IMG/VR virus record: IMGVR_UViG_3300031857_000034
Coordinates: 63,759 to 127,758 of that record
DNA: 64,000 nucleotides
Source of the DNA: a virus
Reading direction: 5' to 3' (one strand)
The notes beneath the pieces were generated by a model. It saw nothing but the letters and a program-made list of their open reading frames with translations. It was not told where the DNA came from and ran no database searches. Below, piece by piece: positions 5,656 through 46,624 of this stretch; the first letter of the stretch is position 1; every line of letters begins with the position of its first letter. A program made the position numbers and the translations under genes.

Positions 5656-5671
5656 GAGGAAATAATTACAC

Positions 5672-8875: not shown

Positions 8876-8885
8876 ATACTAGACC

Positions 8886-9260
8886 ATGGCAACATTCATC
8901 GGATACAACACACAGCAGGCATACAAAAAATTTACCTTGGTTGATCAGCAGTTGGTGATCAGGGATTTGTTGAATGCTTTCAACATCAAGCAAGGCGAAC
9001 TGCCAGGACGCCCTCAATATGGGTCGCCTATCTGGGCCATGATTTTTGAGCAAATGACCCCGGACGTGCAGCAAAACATACGCCAGAGTTGCATAGATAT
9101 CATCAAACAAGACCCTAGACTGAGCCTGCAGACCATCAACGTGTTTCCTTTTGACAATGGTATGCTCATGGAAATTGAAGTACAGTTCCTTCCCAACACT
9201 GATGTAGAGTTGCTGCAGGTATTTTTTGACGGCAACACAGGCGTGGCTGGGCAGGTATAA
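8886..9260 (+). CDS. Baseplate wedge subunit, gp25/GPW-like
   Basis: DLLNAFNIKQGELPGRPQYGSPIWAMIFE...DPRL is the gp25 family pattern. Confidence 0.88.
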   Translation: MATFIGYNTQQAYKKFTLVDQQLVIRDLLNAFNIKQGELPGRPQYGSPIWAMIFEQMTPDVQQNIRQSCIDIIKQDPRLSLQTINVFPFDNGMLMEIEVQFLPNTDVELLQVFFDGNTGVAGQV

Positions 9261-9306
9261 AACCCCTGTTTTTTTGTCAGATAAATATTAAAACACAACT
9301 ATAACT

Positions 9307-12783: not shown

Positions 12784-12785
12784 GC

Positions 12786-31680: not shown

Positions 31681-34086
31681 ATGCCTTATTCAGTTACGCT
31701 AACCCGAGGTGCAATATTCGCTAACATAGCGGATGGAACCATTAACCAAACGTCAACCATGACGCTGATTGGTCGCGACTTTGCCAACTATGGACAGTTC
31801 GTAGATCAGGATTTTATACGCTTACTGGAATCAGGTGCAGCCACAGCCAACAATCGTCCCACCAACGCATTGACAGGACAACTTTGGTATGATCTAACCA
31901 ACACACAGTTAAAAATCGCCACACAGGGCAACATACCCAACGGAGCAACATATACTGGAAATGCCATTACCTGGCAAGGAGTCATGCCAGCACGCTCGGC
32001 CAATGCGCCCAGCGCACCTGCCAAGGGTGATCAATGGATGTATGTTGACAGCGCAAGCAACATTGCGCAGTTGATAGTGTACAGTGGAGACACTACAAAA
32101 ACCACATTTGGAAATCCGGGCTGGCAAGCCATTGGCCCGCTTACACGTCAAGACACAGTAAATGTGGCTGTGATCAATGCCAACGTAGGCAACTTCACAA
32201 CCAACACCGGCGACGGCCGCATCGATGTCAACAATTTATATGGTAACACTGCAGATATCACTGACAGTATGTACGTTGGTAGATTCAGCAATGGTGCCAA
32301 CAACAGCACATCCTTCCTGGATGTACGCGGACAAGGCATCTATGGCAATCTTAATGGAGTGCAGGCTAATATTACGCAGTTGGGCGCATATAACGGTGGA
32401 TTGTTAAATTATATTGCTGTAGGCAACAGTGCTAATCCTGGAACATTTACACAGATAGCTGGCAACGGCATTACCACAAGTCAAGGCATCACAGCCTATG
32501 GAGCCAGTTATCTCGCATCTGTGGCTGGAAATTCTGCCATATTTAATACCATGGGCAATACCAACACACAGATATATGGTGTGATACAGCCCAGCAGCAA
32601 ATATCAACCCTATGTCAAAGGCCTGGGCATACAAGAAGCAGCCTTTGATGCATCTAACAATGCTATTGGCAACGCTGCCTTGGCTGTACGTGGCGACATC
32701 ATTGTAAGTTTTGGCAACGGATTCACTGGATACAGCAATGTCAATCTGGGACAGAATCCCAATACTGGCACAGCATTGAATGCGGTATATGCCAAAACAT
32801 TTTTTGGTAACTTGTCTGGCGCTTTGCTAGGCGACTTGCCTGCAGCCAACATCACAGACATAGCCATACCATCCGACGGCGGAATCTATGTAGGTGACGG
32901 TAACACTACCACAGGCGAAGGCAATATCCGAATCGTGGGTGCCAATGGCACCGGTAGTTTCAACAATGCTGTATACATTGGACGTCCTCCAAACAATCTT
33001 GGTAACGGCAATGTGGGTATCATCCATACCTGGGGCACCAGCACAGTTCCCGGTGGAGTAGGCGACATCCTGACATTTACCAATCTCACAGCCAATGTGC
33101 TGTATGATTTTTACAGAGATGTGCGCATCCAGGGTAATCTTTATGTGCTGGGCAACACAGTTGAAACCAACGTAGAAACCATTACCACTGCTGACAAAGA
33201 TATCACATTGTCGGACAACACAGTCACTGCCAATATCATTACTGGATTAACTGGCGCTGGCATACTTTTAGGCAATGCAGCCAACGTTGGTGCAAGTAAC
33301 CAATTGAAGTTCACAGGAGTGGTGCAAGCCTCGGGTTCGGGCAGTCCGGGCTACGATGCCCAGCGCTGGGTACTCAATCGCAGTTTGAATATAACCAGCG
33401 ATTATCCCAACGTTGGTGGCAGCCTAGGAGATCTACGCGCCACTGGTAATATCTTTGCCGATGGTGCCGTTTCTAACAGCAGCTTCAACGGTGCTGCGGT
33501 AAGCAATCTTTATATCACAGGCACAGGTGGTTATCACACTGGACTATATCGTGGAGCCATTGGTGGAATGTTACACGCCAATGGTGCGGTAGGCAACGCT
33601 GTGGGCACATATTTTAGTAGCACAGTATATCCTGCTACCATACTAGGCACAGCAAATACCACTGCACTGAGAGACAGTGGCGGTAATATCACAGCCAACA
33701 ATTTTATTGGTATCGCTACATATGCACGTTATGCTGACTTGGCCGAACTTTATCTAGCAGATAGAGAATACGTTGCTGGAACCTTGGTAACCGTAGGCGG
33801 AGATGCCGAAATTACTGAGTGTACCAATCAAGATCATCCCCTGGGAGTGATATCGACCAATCCTGCATATCTAATGAATATGTCATTGGTGGGCGGTGTT
33901 CCTGTGGCCTTGCGCGGCCGCGTGCCAGTTAGATTCACGGGCGTGGTCCATAAAGGTGATAAACTGGGTCCCAGTGACGTTCCTGGTGTATGTGCCAGAA
34001 ATAATGATGTACCGATTGCCATAGCACTACATAATGCTTATGCAGAACCTGGTACTGAAGCAATGGTTGAGGCTGTTATACTGTAA
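31681..34086 (+). CDS. Tail fibre protein with a C-terminal Peptidase_G2-like intramolecular chaperone domain
   Basis: N-terminal LIGRDFANYGQ...GQLWYD anchor, a Gly/Asn-rich beta body, and C-terminal YADLAELY...GVISTNPAYLMN...VALRGRVPV. Confidence 0.8.
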   Translation: MPYSVTLTRGAIFANIADGTINQTSTMTLIGRDFANYGQFVDQDFIRLLESGAATANNRPTNALTGQLWYDLTNTQLKIATQGNIPNGATYTGNAITWQGVMPARSANAPSAPAKGDQWMYVDSASNIAQLIVYSGDTTKTTFGNPGWQAIGPLTRQDTVNVAVINANVGNFTTNTGDGRIDVNNLYGNTADITDSMYVGRFSNGANNSTSFLDVRGQGIYGNLNGVQANITQLGAYNGGLLNYIAVGNSANPGTFTQIAGNGITTSQGITAYGASYLASVAGNSAIFNTMGNTNTQIYGVIQPSSKYQPYVKGLGIQEAAFDASNNAIGNAALAVRGDIIVSFGNGFTGYSNVNLGQNPNTGTALNAVYAKTFFGNLSGALLGDLPAANITDIAIPSDGGIYVGDGNTTTGEGNIRIVGANGTGSFNNAVYIGRPPNNLGNGNVGIIHTWGTSTVPGGVGDILTFTNLTANVLYDFYRDVRIQGNLYVLGNTVETNVETITTADKDITLSDNTVTANIITGLTGAGILLGNAANVGASNQLKFTGVVQASGSGSPGYDAQRWVLNRSLNITSDYPNVGGSLGDLRATGNIFADGAVSNSSFNGAAVSNLYITGTGGYHTGLYRGAIGGMLHANGAVGNAVGTYFSSTVYPATILGTANTTALRDSGGNITANNFIGIATYARYADLAELYLADREYVAGTLVTVGGDAEITECTNQDHPLGVISTNPAYLMNMSLVGGVPVALRGRVPVRFTGVVHKGDKLGPSDVPGVCARNNDVPIAIALHNAYAEPGTEAMVEAVIL

Positions 34087-34088
34087 CG

Positions 34089-34562
34089 ATGAATAGCATA
34101 AACGAATTCAAAGCCTTTATTGGCCGAGAGTTTGTTTATAGGCATAATTTGATCAGCGTGATAAAAAATGGTGGACACTATCTTGTTCACAATCACGCTG
34201 AATTATCAAAACTTTACAATGGTCATGCCATCAAACTCGAAGGCCTAGAACGCTACTCTCGCGAGTTGGCTATAAAATGTGCTGGTTTGAAAATCATGTA
34301 TGATCATGTTGGGCCAGTGACTTGTCACGCTTACAGAGCCTTTCCGGGTTCGCAGAGTTTTGGCTCACACTCAGATCCCATGCCAGTATTTTTAGAAGTG
34401 ATTGAAGGCACCAAAAATATGATTGTGGACGGAGAATGGCGCACACTCACAGCAGGTGATACACTGTTGATTCCAGCCAATGTACCACATGAAGCTGTCA
34501 ACCAGGAAGACAGTCTCATGCTGAGTTTTGGCTTAGAATCTTACTTGATAGATTGTCAATGA
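34089..34562 (+). CDS. Cupin/JmjC-like (ROX/YcfD-type) oxygenase
   Basis: SFGSHSD...IEGTK...LTAGDTLLIPANVPHEA gives an HxD...H facial triad in a cupin fold. Confidence 0.75.
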   Translation: MNSINEFKAFIGREFVYRHNLISVIKNGGHYLVHNHAELSKLYNGHAIKLEGLERYSRELAIKCAGLKIMYDHVGPVTCHAYRAFPGSQSFGSHSDPMPVFLEVIEGTKNMIVDGEWRTLTAGDTLLIPANVPHEAVNQEDSLMLSFGLESYLIDCQ

Positions 34563-35626
34563 ATTATCTAAGTTATCTCAAGACCACTGAAACCTGTAAT
34601 TTAAATTGCCGGCATTGTTTTACATCTGGTACCCAAGGGCGTAAGATATTCTGGAATCCAGATCACGTGATTGATTTTTTCCAGCGTTTCCACCAGCACG
34701 TGGGCGCAGGGCACACCATGCACTATGAATTCCACGGTGGCGAACCATTTCTGGCCCCAGTGCAAGATATGATCCGTGTATATGATCAATTGCGTGATAC
34801 TTTTGATGTTGCTTCATTTGGCTGCACCAGTAATCTAACCTTTAAACTAAATCAAGACATTGAAGATTTCATCTTGGGTCCATTGGGTCGACGCATAGGC
34901 ACCAGTTGGGATCCGGCTATTAGATTTGCCAATGTTAGACAAGAATCATTGTGGCGCAGAAACGTTGAAAGGTTGCTGAGCCTAGGAGTGTCCATAAAAC
35001 TGTTTATCAGCGTCACACGGGATACTATCAATATAGAACCCATTGAACTGCTGCGCTGGGTGCGAGATTTAGGTGTTCAAGAAATGGATCTAGAACGCTT
35101 GACCAACAACGGCAATGCTAGACAGCATCCAGATATTTTCCCCCGAAATCTAGATCAGGATCAATGGTTTTTAAAAATGCACCGTCAGATACAGCAATAC
35201 GATGCAAGATCGTGGTTTGCCAATGAGTTCATGGAAAATATCTACAGCAAGTTCGAACGTAACATTACTGGAGCAGGAACTTTCTGCAGAGATTGCGAAC
35301 AAAAACTTTTTACCATCAATGCGGATGGAACAATAGGTGGCTGTCCCAATGCTGCGCCCGAAGAAAATTTTGGACATATTTCCATGGGCATACAAGATGT
35401 CCTGACCCACCCGCAGCGCATAAACAACATAGCCTGCGAATCGCACAGGAATACCCTGTGTTATGACTGTGATGTATTTGACAAATGCGGATCAGATTGT
35501 CATCAATTGAGCTGGCAAGGCGACGTTTGCGGTGCGCCCAAGAGCCTCATGCGAGAACTAAAGTATGGTACAGCCCAAGATTCCTACAAAATTCCCGCCA
35601 AAATGTTTAAAATAGTCCCAGTTTAA
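34559..35626 (+). CDS. Radical SAM/SPASM-domain protein
   Basis: CNLNCRHC motif, FHGGEP, and C-terminal CRDC..GCP..C..CYDCDVFDKCGSDC. The ATG at 34559 forms an ATGA overlap with the cupin stop. Confidence 0.92.
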   Translation: MNYLSYLKTTETCNLNCRHCFTSGTQGRKIFWNPDHVIDFFQRFHQHVGAGHTMHYEFHGGEPFLAPVQDMIRVYDQLRDTFDVASFGCTSNLTFKLNQDIEDFILGPLGRRIGTSWDPAIRFANVRQESLWRRNVERLLSLGVSIKLFISVTRDTINIEPIELLRWVRDLGVQEMDLERLTNNGNARQHPDIFPRNLDQDQWFLKMHRQIQQYDARSWFANEFMENIYSKFERNITGAGTFCRDCEQKLFTINADGTIGGCPNAAPEENFGHISMGIQDVLTHPQRINNIACESHRNTLCYDCDVFDKCGSDCHQLSWQGDVCGAPKSLMRELKYGTAQDSYKIPAKMFKIVPV

Positions 35627-35632
35627 ATTTTG

Positions 35633-35640
35633 TATAAATA
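35633..35640 (+). promoter_or_regulatory. T4-type late promoter TATAAATA
   Basis: Exact T4 late consensus, 5 nt upstream of the ATG at 35646. Confidence 0.7.
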
Positions 35641-35645
35641 GTATT

Positions 35646-36413
35646 ATGGCTCAATTACAGTCCGGATACATTATCAATGCTTCTAATCTCATCAGCGCTT
35701 TTGGCTATGATGCCGTCAGCGCCACTGGCCCACAGGGCAACGGCACCAGTGTAGCTTATGTGGCCAACAGCACAGTGAATTTTGCTGATGGCATTGCTTG
35801 GGGGCCTGCCTCGGGCACATTGCCCGCAAAATATCCCACAGGTGATACACAATGGATTGCTGTATTTGGCGGCAATGGAAGATCAGGTTCTTCAACAGGC
35901 AATGCCTGGGCCACCGCCAATGCTGTGCCCGGAGATTTTAAAAAAACATATCCAAGTGATCCCAGTGTAGATTATGTTATTTTTGCCAGCCACTATTCGG
36001 GCAACGGACTGCCCAGTTCAACTGCGGTGCTGTATCAATCGGCCAGGAATTTTTTAACTGTGAACTGGTGTAGAGCTACAAAAATCACCACTGGAGATAT
36101 TGCACCACCACCATCTGTGTACGGACCTTTCAAAGCAAGTTTTTCAACTGCACAATTTTCCTCCAGCTTTGTAAATCCTACCACTCCGCGCGGACACACT
36201 GACACAGATACATTTGATGGTAGCATTGCCAATGCCACCTATGCAGGAAATGAAAACACTGCCAATCCCACCAATAGAGAGGTCTGGGGTATCAATAACT
36301 ATTTCAACAGTCTTAAAAAATCTTTCAATAATAGACCCATCACTAATGTCAGTATAACAGTTTGTCACGCTCAGTGCCACTCCAGCTGCCATAACAGTCG
36401 CGGCAGGAGATAA
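35646..36413 (+). CDS. Protein A with C-terminal CHAQCHSSCHNSRGRR tail; putative radical-SAM substrate and virion protein
   Basis: 255 aa Gly/Ser/Thr/Asn-rich body ending in a (C-H-x-x)3 tail. Lies inside the rSAM cluster. Confidence 0.75.
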   Translation: MAQLQSGYIINASNLISAFGYDAVSATGPQGNGTSVAYVANSTVNFADGIAWGPASGTLPAKYPTGDTQWIAVFGGNGRSGSSTGNAWATANAVPGDFKKTYPSDPSVDYVIFASHYSGNGLPSSTAVLYQSARNFLTVNWCRATKITTGDIAPPPSVYGPFKASFSTAQFSSSFVNPTTPRGHTDTDTFDGSIANATYAGNENTANPTNREVWGINNYFNSLKKSFNNRPITNVSITVCHAQCHSSCHNSRGRR

Positions 36414-36415
36414 GC

Positions 36416-37159
36416 ATGACCATCTCCACCGGTGATTTAGTAAGATCACGAAATCCGGGCAATGCGCAAAGTATAATCCAGAGTTTTCTCAATGACTATT
36501 TGGCCAGTACCAATGCCAACAGTCCCAACAACAATGTGTTATTCTACACCGGTAGTTACCCTACCAGAACTGTGCCTGCAGCTTATCGAGCTGCAGCCAA
36601 TGCCTACTATGCCGGTTTAGGTATTTTTGCGCCTACATCAAATCAAGTGGCCAATGTGCTCACAGACAGCAACATTGCCAATGTTGGTGGGCAGATCATA
36701 TCTGCCACTGCCAATGTAAGTCTCACATATCCAGCCAGTGCGTCACAGGCCATATCTGCAGGCAACTTCTCAGGATTTAGCCAGATTTTTTACGGCGAAC
36801 TACAAAGATACCTTATCTATAGACGTGTACAGGCCATAACCGTAGTCACAGGTGATATAGCACCTGCAGGCACTTACACAGATTCAGGCAAGGCCTTGGT
36901 AACTTCTGGCTATGCATTATCCGCAGGTAACATAACCAATCCCGGCACTAATGTAAATTTCGCCACTGATCGTGTGATCAGTGCCAGCACAAATGGAACC
37001 TTGGGCGGGTCGGCAGCAGTGGCATTCAACACATATTGGGCTGCATTGATGAGCAATTGGTCCTCGGCATACACCGCTGCTGGCACTATATCAATGTCAT
37101 ACAGCACCTGTCATGCCCAGTGCCATTCCAGCTGCCACAATTCAAGAGGAAGAAGATAA
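36416..37159 (+). CDS. Protein B, paralogue of A, with the identical CHAQCHSSCHNSRGRR tail
   Basis: 247 aa. Shares TGDIAP, an NxYW/F helix and the 16-aa C-terminus with protein A. Confidence 0.75.
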   Translation: MTISTGDLVRSRNPGNAQSIIQSFLNDYLASTNANSPNNNVLFYTGSYPTRTVPAAYRAAANAYYAGLGIFAPTSNQVANVLTDSNIANVGGQIISATANVSLTYPASASQAISAGNFSGFSQIFYGELQRYLIYRRVQAITVVTGDIAPAGTYTDSGKALVTSGYALSAGNITNPGTNVNFATDRVISASTNGTLGGSAAVAFNTYWAALMSNWSSAYTAAGTISMSYSTCHAQCHSSCHNSRGRR

Positions 37160-37160
37160 A

Positions 37161-37892
37161 ATGTCAAATGTAATCACTACCACCGCACCCATATCATTGG
37201 AAAATTTGAAAATTTATTTCAGTGACAAATCCACTAGATATCTAATAGACTATAAAAATTCCAAACTGCAGGAACAAAAACTCCTAACTTATCTTGGTAA
37301 TTTGGATCTCAATTGCGATATAGACATTGAAGATTTTAACGATCCCGATCATGCCAAACTATTGCAAACCTACTTTGCCAGCACCACGCTGGTCAATATT
37401 CCCACGCTGGAACGTGCGGCCATGGGCGTGCTGTTTGAATACAAGGGCCTGATACAGCCAGGATATTTTACCAACTTCATACAGGAAAATATAGAATTGG
37501 TCAAATGCTGGGTACAGAAATTGGATAGCCTGGTTCTGTTCAACACCTATGCTATCAATGACGAACTAGCCAAACAAGAAGTCAAAAATTATCCGGAAGA
37601 TGACACAGACTCCATTGAAGGAATCAATTGGATAAGTCTATTGAAAAACGAAGAATTTTTCTATTTTTATCAGATCTTGGACGCATCTAATCTGCGATAC
37701 TACAGCCGCTATTTTAGTGAAAATATGTTCAAAGGGCGTAATCTTTACTCGTTCTGGGCCAATAACAACAATCCCATGTTTTTGATCACCTGGGGCATAT
37801 TAGAAGAAAAAATAAATAGTAAACAGTGGCAAGAATTGTTGAGTCAGGCCACACAAGAACTTAAGGAACAACAAGATGCTACATCTCTTTAA
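37161..37892 (+). CDS. Hypothetical protein of the rSAM cluster
   Basis: 243 aa. The likely start is the ATG at 37161, 1 nt after the protein B stop. No recognised motif. Confidence 0.65.
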   Translation: MSNVITTTAPISLENLKIYFSDKSTRYLIDYKNSKLQEQKLLTYLGNLDLNCDIDIEDFNDPDHAKLLQTYFASTTLVNIPTLERAAMGVLFEYKGLIQPGYFTNFIQENIELVKCWVQKLDSLVLFNTYAINDELAKQEVKNYPEDDTDSIEGINWISLLKNEEFFYFYQILDASNLRYYSRYFSENMFKGRNLYSFWANNNNPMFLITWGILEEKINSKQWQELLSQATQELKEQQDATSL

Positions 37893-38988
37893 AAGAGTAT
37901 ATCTAGCTTTAGATGAAACGCTGGATACCGCACAACATCGTGTGGTATTGAGTCAGGATTTTGGTCACCCAATGGGAGGTGAATTTGCCTCTGTTGGCCA
38001 ACTGCTAGATTACAATGAAAGCGTGGAAGGTGTGATTGGCGCCGGCAAAACCTATCCAGACTATCTGAGTTTCTTGAATTTCCTTGGATCAAAACAAGAC
38101 GAGTTAAATGCGCCAGTGACAGTGTACGCAGATCGAGACAGTTTTGTCAAAATAGGAACTAATTTTTTCCGTGCTGCATTGCCTTTGGCCACGGTCAAGG
38201 ACATCTATCAGATCTTGGCTTTCTACACTGTTAGACAAAGCCTGTTAAGTAGTAATGTTACATTCTCTAGTCCTGTTCAAAATCATGCACGCCTTAAAAA
38301 TAAAGCTGCCATTACAGAAGCCGAAGTATCTGCTGAATTTTTCAAGGGACAAACCAACCCTGTTGATTTCTATAGTTTTTTTGCTGAAAAAAGAGCCGAT
38401 CTAAGCATAGAATTTGTATTGGCAACATACAGTTACAATGGTCAATGCGAAGACATATTCAGTGAACAGATCAAAGGCTTTTGTATCAAGCACGCCTACT
38501 TGAGTGCGTTGGAAGCCAGAGAGCACATAGTTGACACGCTGACGTCAGAAAAAACCAAAAGCGTCTTGAATCTTTCGGATCGTCCAATTTTGGAAATGAT
38601 TGGAATTTTGCAGCAAGCCGAATCCACACGCTTGTTGTTTGACGATAGGTTTTTCCCAAGAGATGTTTCTACAGTTAGTTTTGATGCTAACTGGCGCAGA
38701 GTATCTGAATCTGAAATTGCCAAATTGTCAAAAACAGTGATCAAAGTTTTTAGAGATCTCAAAGGCTTGCCTTTGAACGAAGTACCCATTGGATTCTTCC
38801 CCGGCATAGAACACATCAATAATCCGGCACAATGGAGTCAGTATCGAGATCGTGTCATGGATGTTTTGCCATTTATTGCGTCTAGCGAGTCACATAAAAT
38901 CAATGCTACATTGTTTAATTACATAAACGACGCTAGAAAAAACAACCGTGAGTTACTGAGACCATTTGTCATCAACGGTTGCACCTGA
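37876..38988 (+). CDS. Hypothetical protein of the rSAM cluster
   Basis: 370-aa ORF overlapping the upstream gene. No confident motif. Confidence 0.65.
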   Translation: MLHLFKRVYLALDETLDTAQHRVVLSQDFGHPMGGEFASVGQLLDYNESVEGVIGAGKTYPDYLSFLNFLGSKQDELNAPVTVYADRDSFVKIGTNFFRAALPLATVKDIYQILAFYTVRQSLLSSNVTFSSPVQNHARLKNKAAITEAEVSAEFFKGQTNPVDFYSFFAEKRADLSIEFVLATYSYNGQCEDIFSEQIKGFCIKHAYLSALEAREHIVDTLTSEKTKSVLNLSDRPILEMIGILQQAESTRLLFDDRFFPRDVSTVSFDANWRRVSESEIAKLSKTVIKVFRDLKGLPLNEVPIGFFPGIEHINNPAQWSQYRDRVMDVLPFIASSESHKINATLFNYINDARKNNRELLRPFVINGCT

Positions 38989-39045
38989 CCTTTTATTGCC
39001 ATTACCACTGATAATATTGGCTAAGTATTTTGGACCAATATTGCC

Positions 39046-40065
39046 ATGAGTGATCTAGACTTTTATAAAATCATTGAGAACAAAATCATCGACTATGTAG
39101 AAGTCGTGGTGCTGTTCTTTGAGCACTGCAATATGAAGTGTGTTTTTTGTCCTCAGAATCATGATGATACCACTGGCGCCAACAGAGATAGTATCATTGG
39201 CAAGTCTCAATTGGTAGTAGATTACATCAATACCAGTCCCAAGCAACAGTTTGTAATACATATCATGGGCGGAGAACTGTTCCAGGATCATTGGATCAAA
39301 CAAGGATTCATTGAGGTGTATCAGGAATTTATTGACACTGTAAAACACAATGTGGCCAGCGGAAAAACTGTAGATTTTCTTTTTGTTACCAATCTGGTGT
39401 ATGAACAAATTGACGCAGTCTTGGACTTTTGTCGCAACAATCAATTGACCATGAATGTAAGTTACGATCCGGCTGGTAGATTCAACGCACAGGAACTGGC
39501 ACTATTCAAACGCAACATTGAAAAGTTCCAACCCTATGTACATTTGATTTCAACTGTGATCACCCGACAAAACATCGAGAAAATTATAGCAGGTGATGCC
39601 TATTATGATTATCTGTATCAAACATTTGAAACAGATTGGGATCAACTTTTGCCTGGAAAGAATTTTAATCCAGCACTCATGCCTCGGGAAAGCCAGTTAT
39701 TAGAATACTATCGATTCATGATTGACAAGTATCCTCGCTGCAACAACATCGCGTACTTTCTCAATCAAAATCAACAAAAGAAAATGTCTTGTACTAGAGG
39801 CAGCAGCCACACTATCATGACAGATGGATCATCCCCCAAGGGCTGCAGCGGCACTGTGCTGTTAAAAGATCCCCGCAGCCAAGAACTTGGTTCTAGCAAG
39901 ATCATACAGATATTCTTGGAAGAAAAAGATTGTCTCAGTTGTGAGTTTTATTCACGTTGTAGTTTCACTTGCTTTATCAAGAACGAATACAAACATCTCA
40001 TAAGAGATGTAGATGGTTGTGTATTTGCAGAAGCGTTTAGATATGCAGATGCAAAAACAACATAA
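39046..40065 (+). CDS. Radical SAM protein with a Cys-rich SPASM/twitch-like C-terminus
   Basis: CNMKCVFC, MGGELF, and C-terminal SC..GC..CLSCEFYSRCSFTC. Confidence 0.9.
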   Translation: MSDLDFYKIIENKIIDYVEVVVLFFEHCNMKCVFCPQNHDDTTGANRDSIIGKSQLVVDYINTSPKQQFVIHIMGGELFQDHWIKQGFIEVYQEFIDTVKHNVASGKTVDFLFVTNLVYEQIDAVLDFCRNNQLTMNVSYDPAGRFNAQELALFKRNIEKFQPYVHLISTVITRQNIEKIIAGDAYYDYLYQTFETDWDQLLPGKNFNPALMPRESQLLEYYRFMIDKYPRCNNIAYFLNQNQQKKMSCTRGSSHTIMTDGSSPKGCSGTVLLKDPRSQELGSSKIIQIFLEEKDCLSCEFYSRCSFTCFIKNEYKHLIRDVDGCVFAEAFRYADAKTT

Positions 40066-41773
40066 TTCACTAACCCTGGCTTTTGTAAATCCACCCCATG
40101 CGGATTGGAGCCTGGCCAACAACGTCACTTACCTGCTGTGTCAAAGTCATTATCAGCGCAATGGCAAGTATGCTGATCGTGTCAAGTGGTTGCCGGCTCC
40201 TTACAAGTTCGATCGATATGAGACTTATAAAGAAGTCTATCAAGAAATTGCCCAAGCAGATGCGATCATGTTTAGCAGTTATGCTTGGAACTATACCATC
40301 TGTGATGAAATAGCCAAGATAGCCCAAGCACAAGGCAAGATAACTATCCTGGGCGGTCCGCACATTGGCACCAACGAACCAGAGTTTTTGGCCACCAGAA
40401 CCTACTATGATTATATTTGCCGCCCTACCAAGCCCGGCGAAACATTTATTGAAGACTTTATCAACAGTTATTTTGACAACCAAGGTCGGGCACGCAAAGC
40501 AGACATCAGTTGGGAATTGAACAGCGAACGAGAACGTTCATATCTCATAGACTATGACTACAGCGTCTACGAAGACCATTTGCCTTATCTGAGTGAAATA
40601 GTAGAATATGCCAGGTCCCAACGCATAGAGCCTTTTATAGTGCTAGAGTCCACTAGGGGTTGTCCATACAGTTGTGTGTTCTGTGAATGGGGCGGTGGCA
40701 TTGGCACTAAAATATACAAAAAATCAGAAGCAGTGGTCAAGCGAGACATCCTGGCGCTCAAAGCCGCGGGATTCCGCGATGCTTATCTCACCGATGCAAA
40801 CTTTGGTGTGTTCGAGCAACGTGATATAGAACTGTTTCGGTTTGCATGGCAAAACAAATTCAATCTCACAGACATCAGCACAGTAAAAAGTCGTGACCTC
40901 ACTAGAAGAAAACGATTAGTAGATGCTTGGTTTGATGTTGTGGGACGTGGTCCAGAAAGGCACAGTGCCAGCGAAGGGGGTACTGATATGTGGGGAGAGA
41001 CCGAGTTTATCAGTGTGGTGCCTACGGTCAGTATACAAAGCGTCAGCGACGAAGCCATGAAAGTGGCCAATCGTGTGGATCTTAGTTTAGAAGATAAAAT
41101 AGAACTCAGCAGACACATCAATCAACGCTGTAGAGAACAGGGCTTTCCTACTCCTGCCGTGGAATTGATCCTGGCCATGCCCGGGTCAACCATTGATGAT
41201 TTCTACACAGAATTTGAGATCATGTATAACTTCCAAGCGCGATCCACAGTGGGCAATAACAGCGGCTGGTCCAGTTTCAGACATGACTATATGTTTCTGC
41301 CCGATAGCGAACTCAACAGCGATGTTTATAAAATTAAATACAAGATCGAAACTGTAGAAGTCTACAGCGACATCATCGATGAAGACGGTGTAGACAATTG
41401 GAACAGCCTGTACAAAAACAAACGCACTTACTTTAAAACTATCAGGAGTTGCTATAGTTTTACCAGGGAAGAAATGTTAGAAATGTGGTTTATGAATCAA
41501 GCAGGACCTTATGTGTTAGAACATTTTTTTGATCCACTAAAAGACTATACAACACCCAAGGAGTGTGCTAGAATAGCCTACAAGGTTATCCAACAGTTGG
41601 ATGATTACGGCCCCATACATGATATGATAGCAGATATTTTCAATCCCGATACTGAACCGCGTAGCATAAGGAAATTAGGCAATAGGTTTAGGGTGCTTGT
41701 GATAGAGGAAATGTTGAACGCCAACAAACCTTTGATAATGAACGGAGTCATGAATCATGTATTACAACATTAA
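40043..41773 (+). CDS. Radical SAM protein with an N-terminal cobalamin-binding-like domain (class B-like)
   Basis: FSSYAWN...ILGGPH B12-type domain, ESTRGCPYSCVFCEWG, and DANFG. The start is uncertain (40013, 40043 or 40049). Confidence 0.85.
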   Translation: MQMQKQHNSLTLAFVNPPHADWSLANNVTYLLCQSHYQRNGKYADRVKWLPAPYKFDRYETYKEVYQEIAQADAIMFSSYAWNYTICDEIAKIAQAQGKITILGGPHIGTNEPEFLATRTYYDYICRPTKPGETFIEDFINSYFDNQGRARKADISWELNSERERSYLIDYDYSVYEDHLPYLSEIVEYARSQRIEPFIVLESTRGCPYSCVFCEWGGGIGTKIYKKSEAVVKRDILALKAAGFRDAYLTDANFGVFEQRDIELFRFAWQNKFNLTDISTVKSRDLTRRKRLVDAWFDVVGRGPERHSASEGGTDMWGETEFISVVPTVSIQSVSDEAMKVANRVDLSLEDKIELSRHINQRCREQGFPTPAVELILAMPGSTIDDFYTEFEIMYNFQARSTVGNNSGWSSFRHDYMFLPDSELNSDVYKIKYKIETVEVYSDIIDEDGVDNWNSLYKNKRTYFKTIRSCYSFTREEMLEMWFMNQAGPYVLEHFFDPLKDYTTPKECARIAYKVIQQLDDYGPIHDMIADIFNPDTEPRSIRKLGNRFRVLVIEEMLNANKPLIMNGVMNHVLQH

Positions 41774-42293
41774 AGATATCTATAGCAAAGGATTTGTACA
41801 ACTCAGTGAGCCCGACGCCTTGGCATTGATCAACATCGATGAATTCAAACTGTTGAATGTGGAAGAACGTGTTAGAGATAACGGCAAGCAAGATGTCAGT
41901 GCCGAACTGGCCAAGAGATTAGAAACCTTGGCTTTGTATTTGAAAACCAAGTACATAGATCCCGAATGGCCCGCGGCTGAATACAACAAGTTCATAGTTT
42001 GGGATGGCGTGGATCGTGACAATCAAGGTTGGCACACAGATATGTTTGAAAACTATGACATTTTCTTTTTGTATTATTTTGATGACACCCATGCTGAAAC
42101 AGGTGGCAGCATAAACTTCAAATGGGGAGTGTTACAAGGCCAGGAACAGACTGCCACATTCCAGCCCCGGGCAGGTGATGTTTTCATGGTCAATAATCTT
42201 CGCGGATTTTGGCACAGAGCCGATGATACAAAGATACGTCGACGAGTGGCCAGTTTTGATTTTTGTGTAGGATTGAAAAATGGAACTCAATGA
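41757..42293 (+). CDS. 2OG-Fe(II) oxygenase
   Basis: WHTD...GGSINF...FWHRA...RRV gives the HxD...H...R motif. Confidence 0.8.
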   Translation: MYYNIKDIYSKGFVQLSEPDALALINIDEFKLLNVEERVRDNGKQDVSAELAKRLETLALYLKTKYIDPEWPAAEYNKFIVWDGVDRDNQGWHTDMFENYDIFFLYYFDDTHAETGGSINFKWGVLQGQEQTATFQPRAGDVFMVNNLRGFWHRADDTKIRRRVASFDFCVGLKNGTQ

Positions 42294-42662: not shown

Positions 42663-43736
42663 ATGGATCTAATTATCAAACCAACTGAGAGTTGCAATTT
42701 CAAATGTACGTTTTGCTCCAGTACCAACATCACCGACGACAAAAGTGCTGAACTTGGGCACGATCAAATTTTTAGATTTCTTGAACGTTTTCCTGACACC
42801 AAAACAATCATAGTCAACGGTGGCGATCCACTCATGATGTCGCCAGCATACTACTGGAAGATCATTGACTGGTTGGACTTACATGAGTATGATACCTCTA
42901 TTAGTTTTACCACTAATCTTTGGCCATTTTACAAGAATCCCCAAAAGTGGGTAGATCTATTCAATCATGAGCGTATGGGCATAACCACCAGCTTCCAATA
43001 TGGTGGAGGACGTCTCAAAGGTGATCTTACCCCATTTTCAGAAGAAGACTTTTGGAAATGCAGCGACGCCATGCTACGCTATTGTGGATATAGGCCAGAC
43101 TTTATCACAGTAATAACCGAAGAAAATGCAGATCGTGCTCTCGACAATGTGAGACTGGCCAAGAAGATGAACGTGGAGTGCAAGTTAAACTATGCCTTTA
43201 GTTCGGGACCTCCTGTGAAGTTTCGTAACATCATCATGGGCCAGCAAGGTCGTCCTTTTGTACTGGCAGATATCTACGAGATATATCTCGAAATCTGGCG
43301 ACAAGAATTATATCCTTGGGAACACAGTACCAAGACCATGATGAAACGACTGCGCGGTGAAGCAACCATATGTCCACAAAACAGAGATTGTGATGCAGGT
43401 ATTAGGACTCTACAGCCATCCGGAGATTACTACAGTTGCGGAGCCTTTGGCGACGACAAAGAATATGCTATAGATTTTGAGCAAGAGATGAATAGCAAAA
43501 AAATAATCAGGATACTGAAAGATCAACCCGATCTTCAGACTCTCAAGCAGAGTTGTTATAGTTGCCCTATGTTTGATATCTGCAATGGTTGTCGCAAAAC
43601 CATAACCGATCTCAAACGGTACAATTTGGTCGAACGCCATTGTAGTAAAATGAAAACTCTTGCTGCCGACATCATTGAAGCCAATGGTGTGGACTTGGAA
43701 CCAACAGAATATGTAAAAGAATATGAGACAGCGTAG
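42663..43736 (+). CDS. Radical SAM/SPASM-domain protein (anSME/peptide-maturase-like)
   Basis: LIIKPTESCNFKCTFC, NGGDP, and C-terminal CP..C..YSC..CYSCPMFDICNGC..C. GAGG RBS upstream. Confidence 0.92.
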   Translation: MDLIIKPTESCNFKCTFCSSTNITDDKSAELGHDQIFRFLERFPDTKTIIVNGGDPLMMSPAYYWKIIDWLDLHEYDTSISFTTNLWPFYKNPQKWVDLFNHERMGITTSFQYGGGRLKGDLTPFSEEDFWKCSDAMLRYCGYRPDFITVITEENADRALDNVRLAKKMNVECKLNYAFSSGPPVKFRNIIMGQQGRPFVLADIYEIYLEIWRQELYPWEHSTKTMMKRLRGEATICPQNRDCDAGIRTLQPSGDYYSCGAFGDDKEYAIDFEQEMNSKKIIRILKDQPDLQTLKQSCYSCPMFDICNGCRKTITDLKRYNLVERHCSKMKTLAADIIEANGVDLEPTEYVKEYETA

Positions 43737-44644: not shown

Positions 44645-44728
44645 TTAGTATATCAGTGATCATTGGTAGTGGCTTATGCTGCCCAAATACCTTTGATCTG
44701 CCTCGAGCGGTCGCTAAATATCTTACCT

Positions 44729-45646
44729 ATGAACATATCCCTTAATCCTTGGTATTATTGTAACTTCCGTTGCAAATTTTGTTATCTAACAGAAGGACAG
44801 TTGTCTAGTCAAAAATTAATCAAACTTGATAAATTGGAGTCTAGATTACAAGAAGTTGTAGCACATTATGGCATCATTGATCAGATTGATGTCTACGGCG
44901 GCGAAGTGGCCCTGCTGCCTAAACAGTACTTTGAAGACATGACTGTGATTTTGAAACGATACTGCAAAAATCTCAACATGATAACAAACCTTAGCGCAGT
45001 AAACCAAATCACCGAAGATCCTAACTATTCTCTCAGTGTCAGTTACGACTTCAGCGCCAGAGAAAAATATGATTTGGTTTACAAGAACATGACCATGATT
45101 TCTTCGGATTTCAGCGTGCTCATGCTGGCCAGTCCGCACTTGATCACACTGGATCCCAACTACATGATCAATATGTTCAATCTCATACCTAATCTACGTT
45201 CAGTAGAAATCAAACCCTATAGTCGCAATCAGGCCAATGATCTCCAGATAACCGACAAAGATTTTGAAAACTATGTGATACGCTGGCTCACCGCTGCCAC
45301 GCCAAAAAAATTCCAGTTTGTCAACGCCGCCCTTATACAACAGGTATTAGACGGGCAAGGACACAGTTACAGTGATGATCACGTGTATATTACTCCCAGC
45401 GGTAGATTTGCTGTGTTGGAATTTGACATCAATGATCGCGAGTATTTCTTAGAAATGGATTCCATTGAAGAATATCAACAATGGTGTGAACGAGAAAAAC
45501 AACGTGTTAGTGTGAACGAATACTGCCGTGATTGCGAATTCCACGGACGCTGTCTAAGCGAACACTTGCGTGAAGTGCGAGATATATCCATGAGTTGCAA
45601 TGGATACAAACATCTCATACAGTGGTATGCTCGCCAGTACACTTGA
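44729..45646 (+). CDS. Radical SAM protein with a short Cys-rich C-terminus
   Basis: NPWYYCNFRCKFC, YGGE, and CRDCEFHGRC..SCNG. The ATG at 44729 follows TAAATA at 44715. Confidence 0.9.
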   Translation: MNISLNPWYYCNFRCKFCYLTEGQLSSQKLIKLDKLESRLQEVVAHYGIIDQIDVYGGEVALLPKQYFEDMTVILKRYCKNLNMITNLSAVNQITEDPNYSLSVSYDFSAREKYDLVYKNMTMISSDFSVLMLASPHLITLDPNYMINMFNLIPNLRSVEIKPYSRNQANDLQITDKDFENYVIRWLTAATPKKFQFVNAALIQQVLDGQGHSYSDDHVYITPSGRFAVLEFDINDREYFLEMDSIEEYQQWCEREKQRVSVNEYCRDCEFHGRCLSEHLREVRDISMSCNGYKHLIQWYARQYT

Positions 45647-46040
45647 TATCATGAAAGAGTGGAAAGTAAGACAGGAAGTATATCACAGACTTACCAAAGA
45701 ACACGGTGACGATCTAAATCAGTTTGACATTGAAATAGTCACTGATGTTGTGTCAACTGCTGTGAAGTATTTTACTGAGCAGGAAGTTGGATGGTTATAT
45801 CCTGGTAAAAGTTATGCAGTTGCTGTCTTATATGCTCGATGGTTGAATCAAGAATTTGGTGAAGATTTTTTAACTGTGCTAGATGATCCTGATCTGCTGT
45901 ACGGCAATGATCCTTACTTTGTTCCCTACAGTCAAGACAAAGAAACCTACATCAAGATCATTGCGGCCTTGCCCAATAACATGGATCAAGGAATGATACC
46001 CGACATAAGAAACTATTTTGAAAGAGAATTCATGCTATGA
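45627..46040 (+). CDS. Hypothetical protein of the rSAM cluster
   Basis: Co-oriented overlapping ORF (YPGKSYAVA...DPDLLYGNDPYFVPY). Start uncertain (45600, 45627 or 45651). Confidence 0.6.
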   Translation: MLASTLDIMKEWKVRQEVYHRLTKEHGDDLNQFDIEIVTDVVSTAVKYFTEQEVGWLYPGKSYAVAVLYARWLNQEFGEDFLTVLDDPDLLYGNDPYFVPYSQDKETYIKIIAALPNNMDQGMIPDIRNYFEREFML

Positions 46041-46624
46041 ATCCAGGAATGAATCTACTGTATCCAACACCTGTGCAGTATACAACCATGAAGAATGATC
46101 ACATACGTCAGCAGGTAGTGGATGCGCTGATGGTCAATGTAGATTTTGCCAAGCCAACCGAAGAAATTTATGAGGAGAACATCTTGGATCTCAATCTACC
46201 TGAACTTGATCAATGGATCGATCAAGAAGTATATCCTGCTTTTGATCAGTATCTTGTAGATACCATTGACAAACATATCACAGACTTCCAAACCTATAAG
46301 TTTAAATCATGGCTTACTGGAAATCAAGGAAATTATCATTTGATCCTGCACAATCACAGTGGTAGTCATTACAGTGGTGTGTTTTATCTGTTGGCCGAAG
46401 AATCCACCCAAGGAGGACAGTTGATATTCTGCGATCCTAGATCTAACGCCAATCGAGGCTATGATAATAAACAAAAACAAAAACAATTTGATTATACTCG
46501 CATACAGCCTCGAACTGGCGATGTTTACATATTTCCCAGTTTCTTGTACCATTTTGTGATGCCTTATGCAGGAACGCTAAGGCTATGTGTGCCGGTGGAT
46601 CTATTTCTCTTTGACGAATCGTAA
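46037..46624 (+). CDS. Putative 2OG-Fe(II) oxygenase (phage-type, HxH...SGVFY...FPSFLYH)
   Basis: LHNHSGSHYSGVFYL...GGQLIFCDPR...IFPSFLYHFV..R. Confidence 0.8.
   Translation: MNPGMNLLYPTPVQYTTMKNDHIRQQVVDALMVNVDFAKPTEEIYEENILDLNLPELDQWIDQEVYPAFDQYLVDTIDKHITDFQTYKFKSWLTGNQGNYHLILHNHSGSHYSGVFYLLAEESTQGGQLIFCDPRSNANRGYDNKQKQKQFDYTRIQPRTGDVYIFPSFLYHFVMPYAGTLRLCVPVDLFLFDES

What the first reader, a model, noticed from the sequence alone, without database searches (positions are those of the whole stretch)
36363..37159. Identical 16-aa tail in two diverged paralogues, conserved only at the protein level
Seen: 36363-36413 is TGT CAC GCT CAG TGC CAC TCC AGC TGC CAT AAC AGT CGC GGC AGG AGA. 37109-37159 is TGT CAT GCC CAG TGC CAT TCC AGC TGC CAC AAT TCA AGA GGA AGA AGA. 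Nine of 16 codons differ (including AGT/TCA for Ser) with no amino-acid change, while the bodies share only short islands such as TGDIAP. Almost all Cys in both proteins are in the tail. Inference: strong purifying selection on an enzyme-recognition or metal-binding core, not a recent duplication. A constant tag on variable bodies is the reverse of the usual RiPP arrangement of constant leader and variable core.
Basis: seen in the sequence. Interest (0 to 1): 0.88.

Follow-up and report, generated by a model that had tools for sequence, protein, structure and literature searches.

The report
Invariant Cys-His tail, radical-SAM cassette
Two neighbouring phage proteins share an unchanging 16-residue Cys-His-Ser-Arg end that hundreds of other phage proteins also carry, always beside radical-SAM enzymes that probably modify it chemically in a way no paper I found describes.

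Summary
ORF A (35646-36413, 255 aa) and ORF B (36416-37159, 247 aa) both end in the same 16 residues, (Cys-His-x-x)x3-Arg-Gly-Arg-Arg. Nine of the 16 codons differ. Outside the tail the bodies are about 23% identical.

The tail defines a large family: 722 clusters at 50% identity. Of 146 representatives, 136 end exactly in CHxxCHxxCHxxRxRR at the C-terminus. C, H and R never vary, and the fourth position of each unit is Ser in 82-95%. Synonymous codons are fully mixed, so selection acts on the protein.

Every locus with enough flank (48 of 48) places the tail protein among radical SAM (rSAM) or rSAM-like genes. This holds in jumbo and other large phages and in chromosomal contigs of Bacteriovoracaceae MAGs.

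Best reading (about 0.6): the tail is the substrate core of the co-encoded rSAM/SPASM maturases. That would be a RiPP-like modification carried out on a folded protein. The chemistry is unknown; His-to-Ser cyclophanes and/or Cys thioethers are candidates.

Rivals are an unmodified metal-binding tail and a docking tag. No modification has been shown. No known fold or family fits the body.

The scan has found this system before on other DNA (69 notes in at least 43 genomes). I found no paper that describes it.

The parts
35646..36413 (+). ORF A, 255 aa, tail-bearing protein (paralogue 1)
   Evidence: ORF list. phrog_35144 matches residues 205-255 at E 3.6e-7. No Pfam or NCBIfam family. AF2 with 149 sequences gives pLDDT 73.8 and an alpha/beta body.
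36363..36410 (+). 16-codon tail of A: (C-H-x-x)x3-R-G-R-R; stop at 36411-36413
36416..37159 (+). ORF B, 247 aa, tail-bearing protein (paralogue 2); starts 2 nt after the stop of A
   Evidence: phrog_35144 at E 5.8e-6. 22 orthologues at 58-89% identity.
37109..37156 (+). 16-codon tail of B; stop at 37157-37159
34553..35626 (+). Radical SAM/SPASM enzyme (rSAM1) directly upstream of A; best candidate maturase
   Evidence: phrog_1802 at E 4e-62. Invariant CxxxCxxC plus 8 C-terminal Cys in SPASM spacing across 13 orthologues. Best NCBIfam hit is PapB at 46.8 bits against a cut-off of 340. Homologue present in 32 of 41 loci.
34089..34562 (+). Cupin / JmjC-like Fe(II) oxygenase
   Evidence: Cupin_2 at E 9e-12 and JmjC_2 at E 3.5e-9. 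HxD...H read. Sits upstream of rSAM1 in most loci of lineage 1.
37161..37892 (+). Conserved unknown protein (phrog_20767); starts 1 nt after the stop of B
   Evidence: E 4e-56. Present in the loci of lineage 1 and in Bacteriovoracaceae loci. No PDB relative by profile.
37876..38988 (+). Conserved unknown 370-aa protein
   Evidence: phmmer hits in most loci. No Pfam, PHROG or PDB relative.
39046..40065 (+). Radical SAM enzyme (rSAM2)
   Evidence: phrog_1802 at E 1.3e-24. Best NCBIfam hit is HxsB at 30.4 bits against a cut-off of 370.
40013..41773 (+). B12-binding radical SAM enzyme (start approximate; the ORF overlaps rSAM2)
   Evidence: B12-binding and Radical_SAM, both below Pfam cut-offs. 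KedN5-type at E 3e-22, below cut-off.
41757..42293 (+). 2OG-Fe(II) oxygenase-like protein
   Evidence: 2OG-FeII_Oxy_3 at E 9.5e-5, below cut-off.
42663..43736 (+). Radical SAM/SPASM enzyme (rSAM3)
   Evidence: Radical_SAM at 34.5 bits, above the cut-off of 29.5. SPASM TIGR04085 at 28.2 bits, above the cut-off of 27.
44663..45646 (+). Radical SAM enzyme (rSAM4)
   Evidence: Radical_SAM at E 1.4e-6 and 29.0 bits, against a cut-off of 29.5.
46037..46624 (+). 2OG-Fe(II) oxygenase
   Evidence: 2OG-FeII_Oxy_5 at E 7e-17.
31681..34086 (+). 801-aa fibre-like protein with a C-terminal intramolecular-chaperone domain (context; precedes the cassette)
   Evidence: Peptidase_G2 IMC domain at E 1.5e-5. phrog_19602 tail fibre at E 5.8e-8.

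Best explanation
A and B are two old paralogues of a large family of small proteins found in phages and in Bacteriovoracaceae. Each has a fast-evolving alpha/beta body of no known fold. Each ends in an invariant C-terminal peptide, V-(C-H-x-S)x3-R-G-R-R-COOH.

The tail is most likely the core (substrate) peptide of the radical SAM/SPASM enzymes encoded around it, first of all the enzyme directly upstream (34553-35626). On this reading the enzymes modify the tail while it stays attached to the folded body. That would be a RiPP-like maturation of a protein.

Shown: the conservation, selection at the protein level, the gene linkage, and the full SPASM cysteine set in the neighbouring enzyme.

Inferred: that the tail is modified at all, and how. 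Two chemistries fit the motif:
- three His-to-Ser C-beta three-residue cyclophanes, one per H-x-S unit, as in His-containing triceptides;
- Cys thioether cross-links on the C-x3 repeat.

The cupin/JmjC, 2OG and B12-rSAM genes would add hydroxyl or methyl groups. The finished tail may be a rigid, possibly metal-binding, end piece of a late or virion-associated protein.
For: (1) Conservation. 722 clusters match at E<=1e-3. Of 146 representatives, 136 end exactly in CHxxCHxxCHxxRxRR. Among those 136, C, H and R are 136/136, and Ser at the fourth place of each unit is 129, 111 and 122 of 136. The whole-protein alignment has only 20% mean column identity.

(2) Protein-level selection. Synonymous codons are mixed at all invariant sites.

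(3) Linkage.
- 32 of 41 loci carry a homologue of rSAM1 next to the tail gene, in the order cupin, rSAM1, tail protein, phrog_20767 protein, 370-aa protein, rSAM2 and onwards.
- The other 9 of 41 have 3-4 CxxxCxxC ORFs directly downstream.
- 6 of 7 further loci (L049-L055: cultured phages DT01 and Phosso, and MAG contigs) have rSAM homologues. The seventh, L055, has one CxxxCxxC ORF.
- In Bacteriovoracaceae MAGs the cassette sits beside nrdR/nusB-like genes with no fibre gene. The tail protein and the rSAMs therefore travel as a unit of their own.

(4) rSAM1 across 13 orthologues keeps C15, C19 and C22. It also keeps C245, C248, C264, C303, C306, C312, C316 and C326, which is the spacing of a full SPASM domain, typical of peptide-modifying rSAMs. 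Its nearest solved relatives by profile are 8vpo, anSME (4k37) and the triceptide synthase ChlB (9gm3).

(5) His-containing three-residue motifs (HAA, HNR, HTK) are proven rSAM cyclophane substrates (PMC11499958, passages). A bacterial His-x-Ser repeat protein is matured by rSAM enzymes (PMC13128918, abstract and section 9).

(6) A and B in this genome share the rare states Q at position 4 (1 of 136 representatives) and N at position 11. Each keeps its own lineage's codons, AAC against AAT. This fits tuning to one shared partner.
Against: No modification is shown: no mass data exist and no paper was found.

Every rSAM here scores far below every curated family cut-off, so the chemistry cannot be read from homology.

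A Cys3His3 tail could simply bind metal, and AF2 draws it as a low-confidence helix.

No RiPP recognition element was detected in any cassette protein by Pfam or NCBIfam.

The cassette holds two other conserved unknown proteins that could be the real substrates.

In 4 loci (L030-L032, L035) about 900 nt separate rSAM1 from the tail ORF.

The co-variation argument rests on one genome. In three relatives the A and B tails differ at 2 positions.
Confidence: 0.6

Rival explanations
1. The tail is an unmodified metal site (Zn, Fe, Cu or an Fe-S cluster) that clamps an oligomer or stabilises the protein. Under this reading the neighbouring rSAM enzymes act on something else.
For: Three Cys and three His are invariant, at i/i+4 spacing. 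AF2 predicts a helix for residues 242-252 of A, which would line up the Cys on one face and the His on the next (inference). 94 of 136 family members have no Cys outside the tail. Phage fibres are known to use His-metal sites (recalled, T4 gp37/gp12).
Against: Metal binding does not explain the near-invariant Ser at each fourth position or the invariant R-x-R-R at the very C-terminus. It also does not explain why the gene is never found away from rSAM genes, even in bacterial chromosomes. The two readings are not exclusive: a modified tail could still bind metal.
Confidence: 0.2
2. The tail is a docking or sorting tag. It would bind one of the conserved unknown proteins (37161-37892 or 37876-38988), an rSAM complex or a virion site, without being chemically changed.
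For: The tail is always at the extreme C-terminus and strongly basic. The two unknown genes are translationally coupled to B, with a 1-nt gap and then an overlap. They co-occur in nearly all loci. 2 of the 10 longer representatives scanned carry a Pfam Gly_rich_2 domain: N-terminal to the tail domain in P0089, just before it in P0151.
Against: A binding tag rarely needs ten invariant residues over such deep divergence. The Cys/His/Ser content points to chemistry rather than recognition alone. No interaction was tested.
Confidence: 0.12
3. The identity is a by-product of recent duplication, gene conversion or a conserved DNA/RNA element overlapping the gene ends.
For: A and B tails are identical in this genome but differ at 2 positions in relatives L042-L044. 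Both share the codon CAG for Q at position 4, so a very short conversion patch there cannot be excluded.
Against: 12 of 48 bases differ. Paralogue-specific codons are kept at positions 11-16. Mean nucleotide identity among 45 distinct tails is 68%, against 89% at the protein level. Body dN is 0.985.
Confidence: 0.02

Closest known systems
Bacterial HXS antiphage system (HxsA effector; rSAM enzymes HxsB and HxsC; HxsD). Li et al., Nat Commun 2026, PMC13128918 (abstract and section 9 read)
   Same: A folded protein, not a short peptide, carries tandem His-x-Ser units. It is matured by two or more co-encoded radical SAM enzymes plus small helper proteins. The window's rSAM2 has HxsB as its best NCBIfam hit.
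   Different: That hit is 30.4 bits against a cut-off of 370. A and B match no Hxs model. Here each H-x-S is preceded by an invariant Cys, and the units sit at the extreme C-terminus followed by RxRR. I saw no signal peptide or peptidoglycan-binding domain (by reading). The system is encoded by phages, not by a defence island. The +8 Da change reported for HxsA is itself unexplained.
Triceptides: three-residue cyclophane RiPPs made by rSAM/SPASM 3-CyFE enzymes such as HaaB, YhhB, HtkB and ChlB. PMC11499958 (passages read)
   Same: Repeated aromatic-X-X motifs, including His-first motifs, lie near the C-terminus of the precursor. The maturase is an rSAM with a SPASM domain encoded next to the precursor. 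ChlB is among the nearest solved relatives of rSAM1.
   Different: rSAM1 scores 18-27 bits against the XyeB, FxsB, YhhB and AmcB models, whose cut-offs are 370-450. The invariant Cys and the RxRR end have no counterpart. The precursor is a 126-483-aa folded protein. No crosslink is shown.
Ranthipeptide / SCIFF systems (PapB, CteB): rSAM/SPASM thioether formation on Cys-x3 repeats (chemistry recalled)
   Same: The Cys-x3-Cys-x3-Cys spacing matches. PapB is the best NCBIfam hit of rSAM1.
   Different: The PapB score is 46.8 bits against a cut-off of 340. The tail has no Asp or Glu acceptor at the i+4 place. It has a protein-sized body.
Protein maturation by rSAM/SPASM enzymes: anSME on sulfatases and QhpD on QhpC. 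Cofactor-type RiPPs with a constant C-terminal core: PQQ and mycofactocin (all recalled)
   Same: An rSAM/SPASM enzyme acts on a full-length protein or on an invariant C-terminal core. anSME is the second-nearest solved relative of rSAM1.
   Different: There is no C/S-x-P/A-x-R sulfatase motif in the tail. The anSME model scores 35.2 bits against a cut-off of 349. There is no evidence that a small cofactor is released.

Membership tests
HXS system (HxsA/B/C/D) | Effector with tandem His-Xaa-Ser repeats | tested here: met
   There are three H-x-S units in the family consensus. In this window the first unit is H-A-Q in both A and B. Each unit is preceded by Cys, unlike HxsA as described in PMC13128918.
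HXS system (HxsA/B/C/D) | Proteins reach the curated HxsA, HxsB and HxsC models | tested here: not met
   A and B match 0 NCBIfam families at E<=0.1. rSAM2 scores 30.4 bits against HxsB (cut-off 370) and 19.8 against HxsC (cut-off 267.9). rSAM3 scores 28.4 against HxsC.
Triceptides (3-CyFE rSAM RiPPs) | Aromatic(1)-X2-X3 motifs in the precursor core | tested here: met
   H-x-S occurs three times. X3 is Ser, with Asn as the main alternative. His-first motifs are proven substrates (PMC11499958).
Triceptides (3-CyFE rSAM RiPPs) | Adjacent rSAM maturase with a SPASM domain | tested here: met
   CxxxCxxC plus C-x2-C-x15-C and C-x2-C-x5-C-x3-C...C are invariant in 13 orthologues. The SPASM motif definition is recalled. 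TIGR04085 scores 23.8 bits for rSAM1 (cut-off 27) and 28.2 for rSAM3.
Triceptides (3-CyFE rSAM RiPPs) | Maturase belongs to a known cyclophane-synthase family | tested here: not met
   AmcB 26.5, FxsB 23.9, YhhB 23.5 and XyeB 18.1 bits, against cut-offs of 370-450.
Triceptides (3-CyFE rSAM RiPPs) | Aromatic-to-C-beta crosslink (-2 Da per ring) | not testable with these tools
   Needs mass spectrometry or NMR.
Ranthipeptides / SCIFF | PapB/CteB-type maturase | tested here: not met
   PapB 46.8 bits against a cut-off of 340. The SCIFF maturase scores 17.5 against 425.
Ranthipeptides / SCIFF | Cys-x3 repeats with a non-alpha-carbon acceptor residue (Asp/Glu in PapA; recalled) | tested here: inconclusive
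   The C-x3-C-x3-C spacing is present. Asp or Glu are almost absent from the tail.
CXXX-repeat rSAM target system (TIGR04115 maturase) | Maturase reaches the curated model | tested here: not met
   25.0 bits against a cut-off of 350. No NCBIfam family of any kind matched A or B.
Anaerobic sulfatase-maturating enzyme system | anSME equivalog and a C/S-x-P/A-x-R target motif (motif recalled) | tested here: not met
   35.2 bits against a cut-off of 349.45. The tail has C-H-x-S, not the sulfatase motif.
phrog_35144 (unnamed phage family) | Match to the family profile | tested here: met
   A at E 3.6e-7 (residues 205-255) and B at E 5.8e-6 (residues 159-247). The function is listed as unknown.

The most novel reading that the evidence does not exclude
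Large phages, and some predatory bacteria, run a dedicated multi-enzyme pathway of up to five radical SAM enzymes plus Fe(II) oxygenases. The pathway would turn the invariant (Cys-His-x-Ser)x3-RGRR end of a folded late protein into a protein-borne, multiply cross-linked Cys/His structure. That structure would be a new kind of protein-derived cofactor or metal site, used in the virion or during cell attack. It could be the phage-side counterpart of the bacterial HxS-repeat effector that blocks phage DNA entry.
Probability: 0.3. Interest if true: 0.9.

Novelty: new variant of a known kind. Interest (0 to 1): 0.72.

Why it matters
If the tail is modified, this would be a widespread example of RiPP-type radical chemistry applied by viruses to their own folded proteins. 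The family has at least 722 sequence clusters. The core motif and enzyme set match no curated family, so new rSAM chemistry is likely.

The system is directly testable in cultured phages of Ralstonia, Burkholderia, Agrobacterium, Sinorhizobium and Pseudomonas, which carry the same tail.

The resemblance to the bacterial HXS defence effector raises the question of whether phage and host use related modified His-x-Ser proteins at the cell envelope.

For annotation, the 16-mer is a simple marker that finds the cassette.

Tried and rejected
Searches that found nothing:
- tblastn of A, of a 190-aa member and of a 140-aa member against GenBank phages found nothing. BLAST's low-complexity filter and the diverged bodies may explain this. 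The cultured-phage members were found through rSAM1 instead.
- Megablast of 34000-40100 against the phage collection found nothing.

Fold and feature searches:
- Foldseek against PDB gave no hit at E<=1e-3.
- Foldseek against BFVD gave one hit at E<=1e-3 (unnamed entry); the next rows are uncharacterised phage proteins, among them Atu_ph07's.
- VIA wide search gave a best Z of 2.3.
- The ESM Atlas gave no usable feature hit.
- The AF2 model of B with 18 sequences was poor, at pLDDT 58.5.

Other negative or blank results:
- Complex prediction of A as three copies returned no verdict (score 0.00). This is not evidence either way.
- The two unknown cassette proteins have no PDB relative by profile.
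- A search for longer fused forms found none, which is weak evidence.
- No RNA holder was listed for the stretch.

Late promoter: TATAAATA at 35633-35640 is the only copy in the window. Chance expects 2.0, and 85 of 100 shuffles had at least one. I therefore do not count it as evidence.

Virion membership: earlier scan notes say a cultured relative is a virion protein. I could not verify this.
- Six records annotate the gene as 'hypothetical protein': RSL2, Atu_ph07, DT01, Phosso, RSF1 and SURPRISE13.
- The RSL2/RSF1 paper is not held.
- The RP31 virion table is in a closed supplement.

Literature: searches found no paper that describes the tail or the cassette. Phage genome papers only list the rSAM, cupin and 2OG genes (passages). 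Supplements were closed and may hold proteomic data that bear on this.

Rejected reading, 'phage-only': two Bacteriovoracaceae MAG contigs carry the cassette with housekeeping genes nearby. These are MiaB-like, sulfatase, aldehyde dehydrogenase, UvrC and FlhA genes 20-40 kb away, and nrdR/nusB-like genes adjacent. The nrdR and nusB names are my reading of the translations. Neither MAG has a Phage_sheath_1 or Terminase_6N match.

NG86 artefact: it gives a tail dN above 0 for A against B only because AGY/TCN Ser and CGN/AGR Arg paths pass through other residues. There is no amino-acid difference.
Full report
**What is in the window.**
ORF A (35646-36413, 255 aa) and ORF B (36416-37159, 247 aa) lie head to tail on the + strand, 2 nt apart. 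Both end in the same 16 residues, (Cys-His-x-x)x3-Arg-Gly-Arg-Arg, followed by TAA.

Reading, 9 of the 16 codons and 12 of the 48 bases differ. These include AGT/TCA for Ser and CGC/AGA for Arg. No residue differs.

BLASTP aligns the two proteins at 50 of 165 identities. Without the tail that is 34 of 149, about 23%. A run of 16 identities is therefore far beyond chance (about 6e-11, my arithmetic).

B has no Cys outside the tail and A has one. The motif occurs nowhere else in the six frames of the window or in the 127,758-base virus record that holds it. The only adjustment is that the quoted end coordinates include the stop codons.

**The tail in relatives.**
- Of 22 B orthologues (58-89% identity), 21 have the tail and one has F for the first C.
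- Of 23 hits to A, 22 have the tail and one is a truncated 172-aa entry.
- A degenerate-pattern scan of viral contigs gave 39 loci. Together with two annotated phage loci and the window, 52 ORFs of 126-296 aa end in the motif. Several of these loci are near-duplicates of one another, and L027 is the same phage as L002.
- A profile of 33 diverse members found 722 clusters at 50% identity with E<=1e-3, 357 at 1e-10 and 92 at 1e-30.
- I examined 146 of the 150 listed proteins; the other four were already known and also carry the tail. Of these, 136 end exactly in CHxxCHxxCHxxRxRR. Five have a looser form and five have none, partly because they are truncated.

Among the 136, C, H and the three R are invariant. 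The residue before the first Cys is V in 100. The fourth residue of each unit is Ser in 129, 111 and 122, with Asn as the main alternative. The residue between the Arg is Gly in 99. In 94 of the 136 there is no Cys outside the tail. Lengths run from 68 to 483 aa, with a median of 198.

The alignment of whole proteins has only 20% mean column identity.

**Selection acts on the protein.**
Across 45 distinct tail DNAs, both Cys codons, both His codons, both Ser codon families and up to five Arg codons are used at invariant sites. Mean pairwise identity is 68% for the bases and 89% for the residues.

Between A and B, body dN is 0.985 and dS is saturated. Between orthologues, body dN/dS is about 0.09-0.10. 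A recent duplication, a conversion tract across the tail, or a conserved DNA or RNA element is therefore excluded as the cause.

**A detail specific to this genome.**
A orthologues mostly read C-H-V-S...G-S, and B orthologues mostly read C-H-A-S...G-S. In three related contigs the two tails differ at two positions. Here both read C-H-A-Q...N-S.

- Q at position 4 occurs in 1 of the 136 representatives. It occurs in none of the 22 other B-lineage proteins.
- The Asn codons are AAC in A and AAT in B. Each is one step from its own lineage's Ser codon.
- A keeps A-type codons at positions 12-16, and B keeps B-type codons.

This looks like parallel change towards one shared partner rather than conversion. 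It rests on one genome, and a very short conversion patch at the shared CAG cannot be excluded.

**Genomic context.**
The window is a tail and baseplate region of a large phage. It has gp5- and gp6-like proteins, a 6033-aa ORF, and an 801-aa fibre-like protein with an intramolecular-chaperone domain.

The following genes come next, all on the + strand and mostly overlapping or a few bases apart:
- a cupin/JmjC-like protein
- rSAM1
- A
- B
- a phrog_20767 protein
- a 370-aa unknown protein
- rSAM2
- a B12-type rSAM
- a 2OG oxygenase-like protein
- rSAM3 with a SPASM domain
- rSAM4
- a second 2OG oxygenase

The same order occurs in cultured phages: Ralstonia phage RSL2, Agrobacterium phage Atu_ph07, Pseudomonas phage pPa_SNUABM_DT01 and Sinorhizobium phage Phosso. 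In each, the gene after rSAM1 ends in the tail.

Tally of linkage across loci:
- 32 of the 41 loci carry an rSAM1 homologue beside the tail gene, nearly always together with the two unknown proteins and rSAM2.
- The other 9 form a second lineage. It has an 1850-aa fibre with a chaperone domain, two tandem tail proteins of 126-140 aa, and then 3-4 ORFs with an N-terminal CxxxCxxC. Pfam recognises one of these only weakly. That ORF is related to RSL2 ORF071 inside the RSL2 cassette.
- A scan of 185,579 species genomes gave only five loci, all from MAGs or bins. Four of them show rSAM homologues next to the tail gene, and the fifth (L055) a CxxxCxxC ORF.

Two of these contigs, from Bacteriovoracaceae, are chromosomal. 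Housekeeping genes lie 20-40 kb away. nrdR- and nusB-like genes lie directly upstream, by my reading. There is no phage sheath or terminase match in the genome, and no fibre gene next to the cassette.

The tail protein, the two unknown proteins and several rSAM enzymes therefore move as one unit. That unit does not depend on a phage tail context.

**The enzymes.**
rSAM1 keeps CxxxCxxC in 13 orthologues. It also keeps eight further Cys in the spacing C-x2-C-x15-C ... C-x2-C-x5-C-x3-C ... C. This is the pattern of a full SPASM domain with two auxiliary clusters (definition recalled).

Its NCBIfam hits are all peptide or protein maturases: PapB, anSME, CbpB, DynA, AmcB, FxsB, YhhB and XyeB. None scores above 47 bits, against cut-offs of 340-450. 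By profile, its nearest solved relatives are 8vpo, anSME and the triceptide synthase ChlB.

rSAM2's best hit is HxsB, at 30.4 bits against a cut-off of 370. The cassette therefore belongs to the peptide-modifying SPASM branch in a general sense and to no curated family.

**The body.**
AF2 with 149 sequences gives A a pLDDT of 73.8 and a pTM of 0.74. The model is an alpha/beta domain that ends in a helix, then a strand, then the tail. The tail is drawn as a helix of middling confidence.

No solved fold matches it. In BFVD the only match at E<=1e-3 is an unnamed entry, and the next rows are uncharacterised phage proteins, one of them from Atu_ph07. The middle of the protein is the most variable part and takes insertions. 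Of 10 longer members scanned, 2 carry a Pfam Gly_rich_2 domain: N-terminal to the tail domain in P0089, just before it in P0151. None of this shows a fibre.

**How it most likely works.**
The invariance of C, H, S and R, the fixed position at the C-terminus, and the unbroken linkage to SPASM-type rSAM enzymes fit a substrate core best. Those enzymes are translationally coupled in this window. The body would serve as leader or scaffold, and perhaps as the functional protein.

Two known chemistries fit the motif:
- Three-residue cyclophanes form on aromatic-X-X motifs. These include the His-first motifs HAA, HNR and HTK, with the His C2 to residue-3 C-beta link shown for HTK and HAA (PMC11499958, passages). 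The S/N preference at the third place of each H-x-S unit would suit an acceptor carbon.
- Thioethers form on Cys-x3 repeats, as in ranthipeptides (recalled).

The closest biological parallel is the bacterial HXS defence system. There a protein with five His-x-Ser repeats is matured by HxsB and HxsC. It acquires a +8 Da change on an SHRSS motif and then blocks phage DNA entry (PMC13128918, abstract and section 9).

I put about 0.6 on 'the tail is modified by the cassette'. I put about 0.2 on an unmodified metal site, about 0.12 on a docking tag, and little on anything at the DNA level. No step of the chemistry is shown.

**What is known and what is new.**
My eight literature searches found no description of the tail or the cassette. 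Phage genome papers only list the rSAM, cupin and 2OG genes.

The scan itself has met this system before on other DNA: 69 notes in at least 43 genomes, with the same reading.
- Those notes claim that a cultured relative is a virion protein. I could not verify this, because six records annotate the gene only as hypothetical, the RSL2/RSF1 paper is not held, and the supplements are closed.
- I did confirm the notes' statement that predatory bacteria carry the cassette.
- The note that a TATAAATA late promoter precedes A is not supported statistically. There is one copy in the window, and chance expects 2.0.

**Verdict.**
The tail is best read as the substrate core of an undescribed rSAM maturation system for a phage protein. 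This is a new variant of a known kind (rSAM peptide and protein maturation). It is of high interest because it is widespread, chemically unassigned, and testable in cultured phages.

Noticed in passing
window 35633-35640: TATAAATA lies 6 nt upstream of the start of A. It is the only copy in 64 kb, chance expects 2.0, and 85 of 100 shuffles have at least one. It is weak as a late-promoter call.
   Followed up: yes
L052 (Bacteriovoracaceae MAG contig) 3375-12077; also L051 and L053: The cassette sits in a bacterial chromosome directly beside nrdR- and nusB-like genes. It comprises rSAM1, an rSAM-like gene, a 211-aa tail protein, a 370-aa-type protein, an rSAM, a phrog_20767-type protein and more rSAMs. 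There is no fibre gene and apparently no cupin.
   Followed up: partly
P0106, P0137, P0181, P0193, P0194: Variant tails exist. In some the middle unit has lost its Cys (C-H-S-N-H-x-N-T-C-H...). One has four C-H units and a Gly-rich end instead of RxRR. These natural variants could show which residues are needed.
   Followed up: no
P0089 (453 aa), P0151 (483 aa): Long family members carry a Pfam Gly_rich_2 domain: N-terminal to the tail domain in P0089 (residues 13-265), just before it in P0151 (357-423). The meaning of that domain was not checked.
   Followed up: no
L001 (RSL2) 12017-12976, ORF071: This ORF is annotated as hypothetical. It is the best GenBank-phage match (E 3e-15) of a divergent CxxxCxxC protein of the second, marine-type lineage. 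It therefore links the two cassette lineages.
   Followed up: partly
L030-L032, L035 at about 4783-5707: In these loci about 900 nt separate rSAM1 from a short (140 aa) tail ORF. Either an extra gene or a mis-set start lies between them.
   Followed up: no
window 12786-30887: A single 6033-aa ORF lies between baseplate-like genes and the fibre gene. Homologous giant 'virion structural protein' genes precede the cassette in Atu_ph07 and Phosso.
   Followed up: no
G000 (whole record): The window is the second half of a 127,758-base IMG/VR record that CheckV estimates at 33% complete. The phage is therefore probably a jumbo phage of several hundred kb.
   Followed up: no
L054 (Bacilli MAG, 249-kb contig): The tail protein here is preceded by at least five rSAM paralogues in a row. 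Large neighbouring ORFs have no Pfam match, so this contig may be a mis-binned giant phage.
   Followed up: partly
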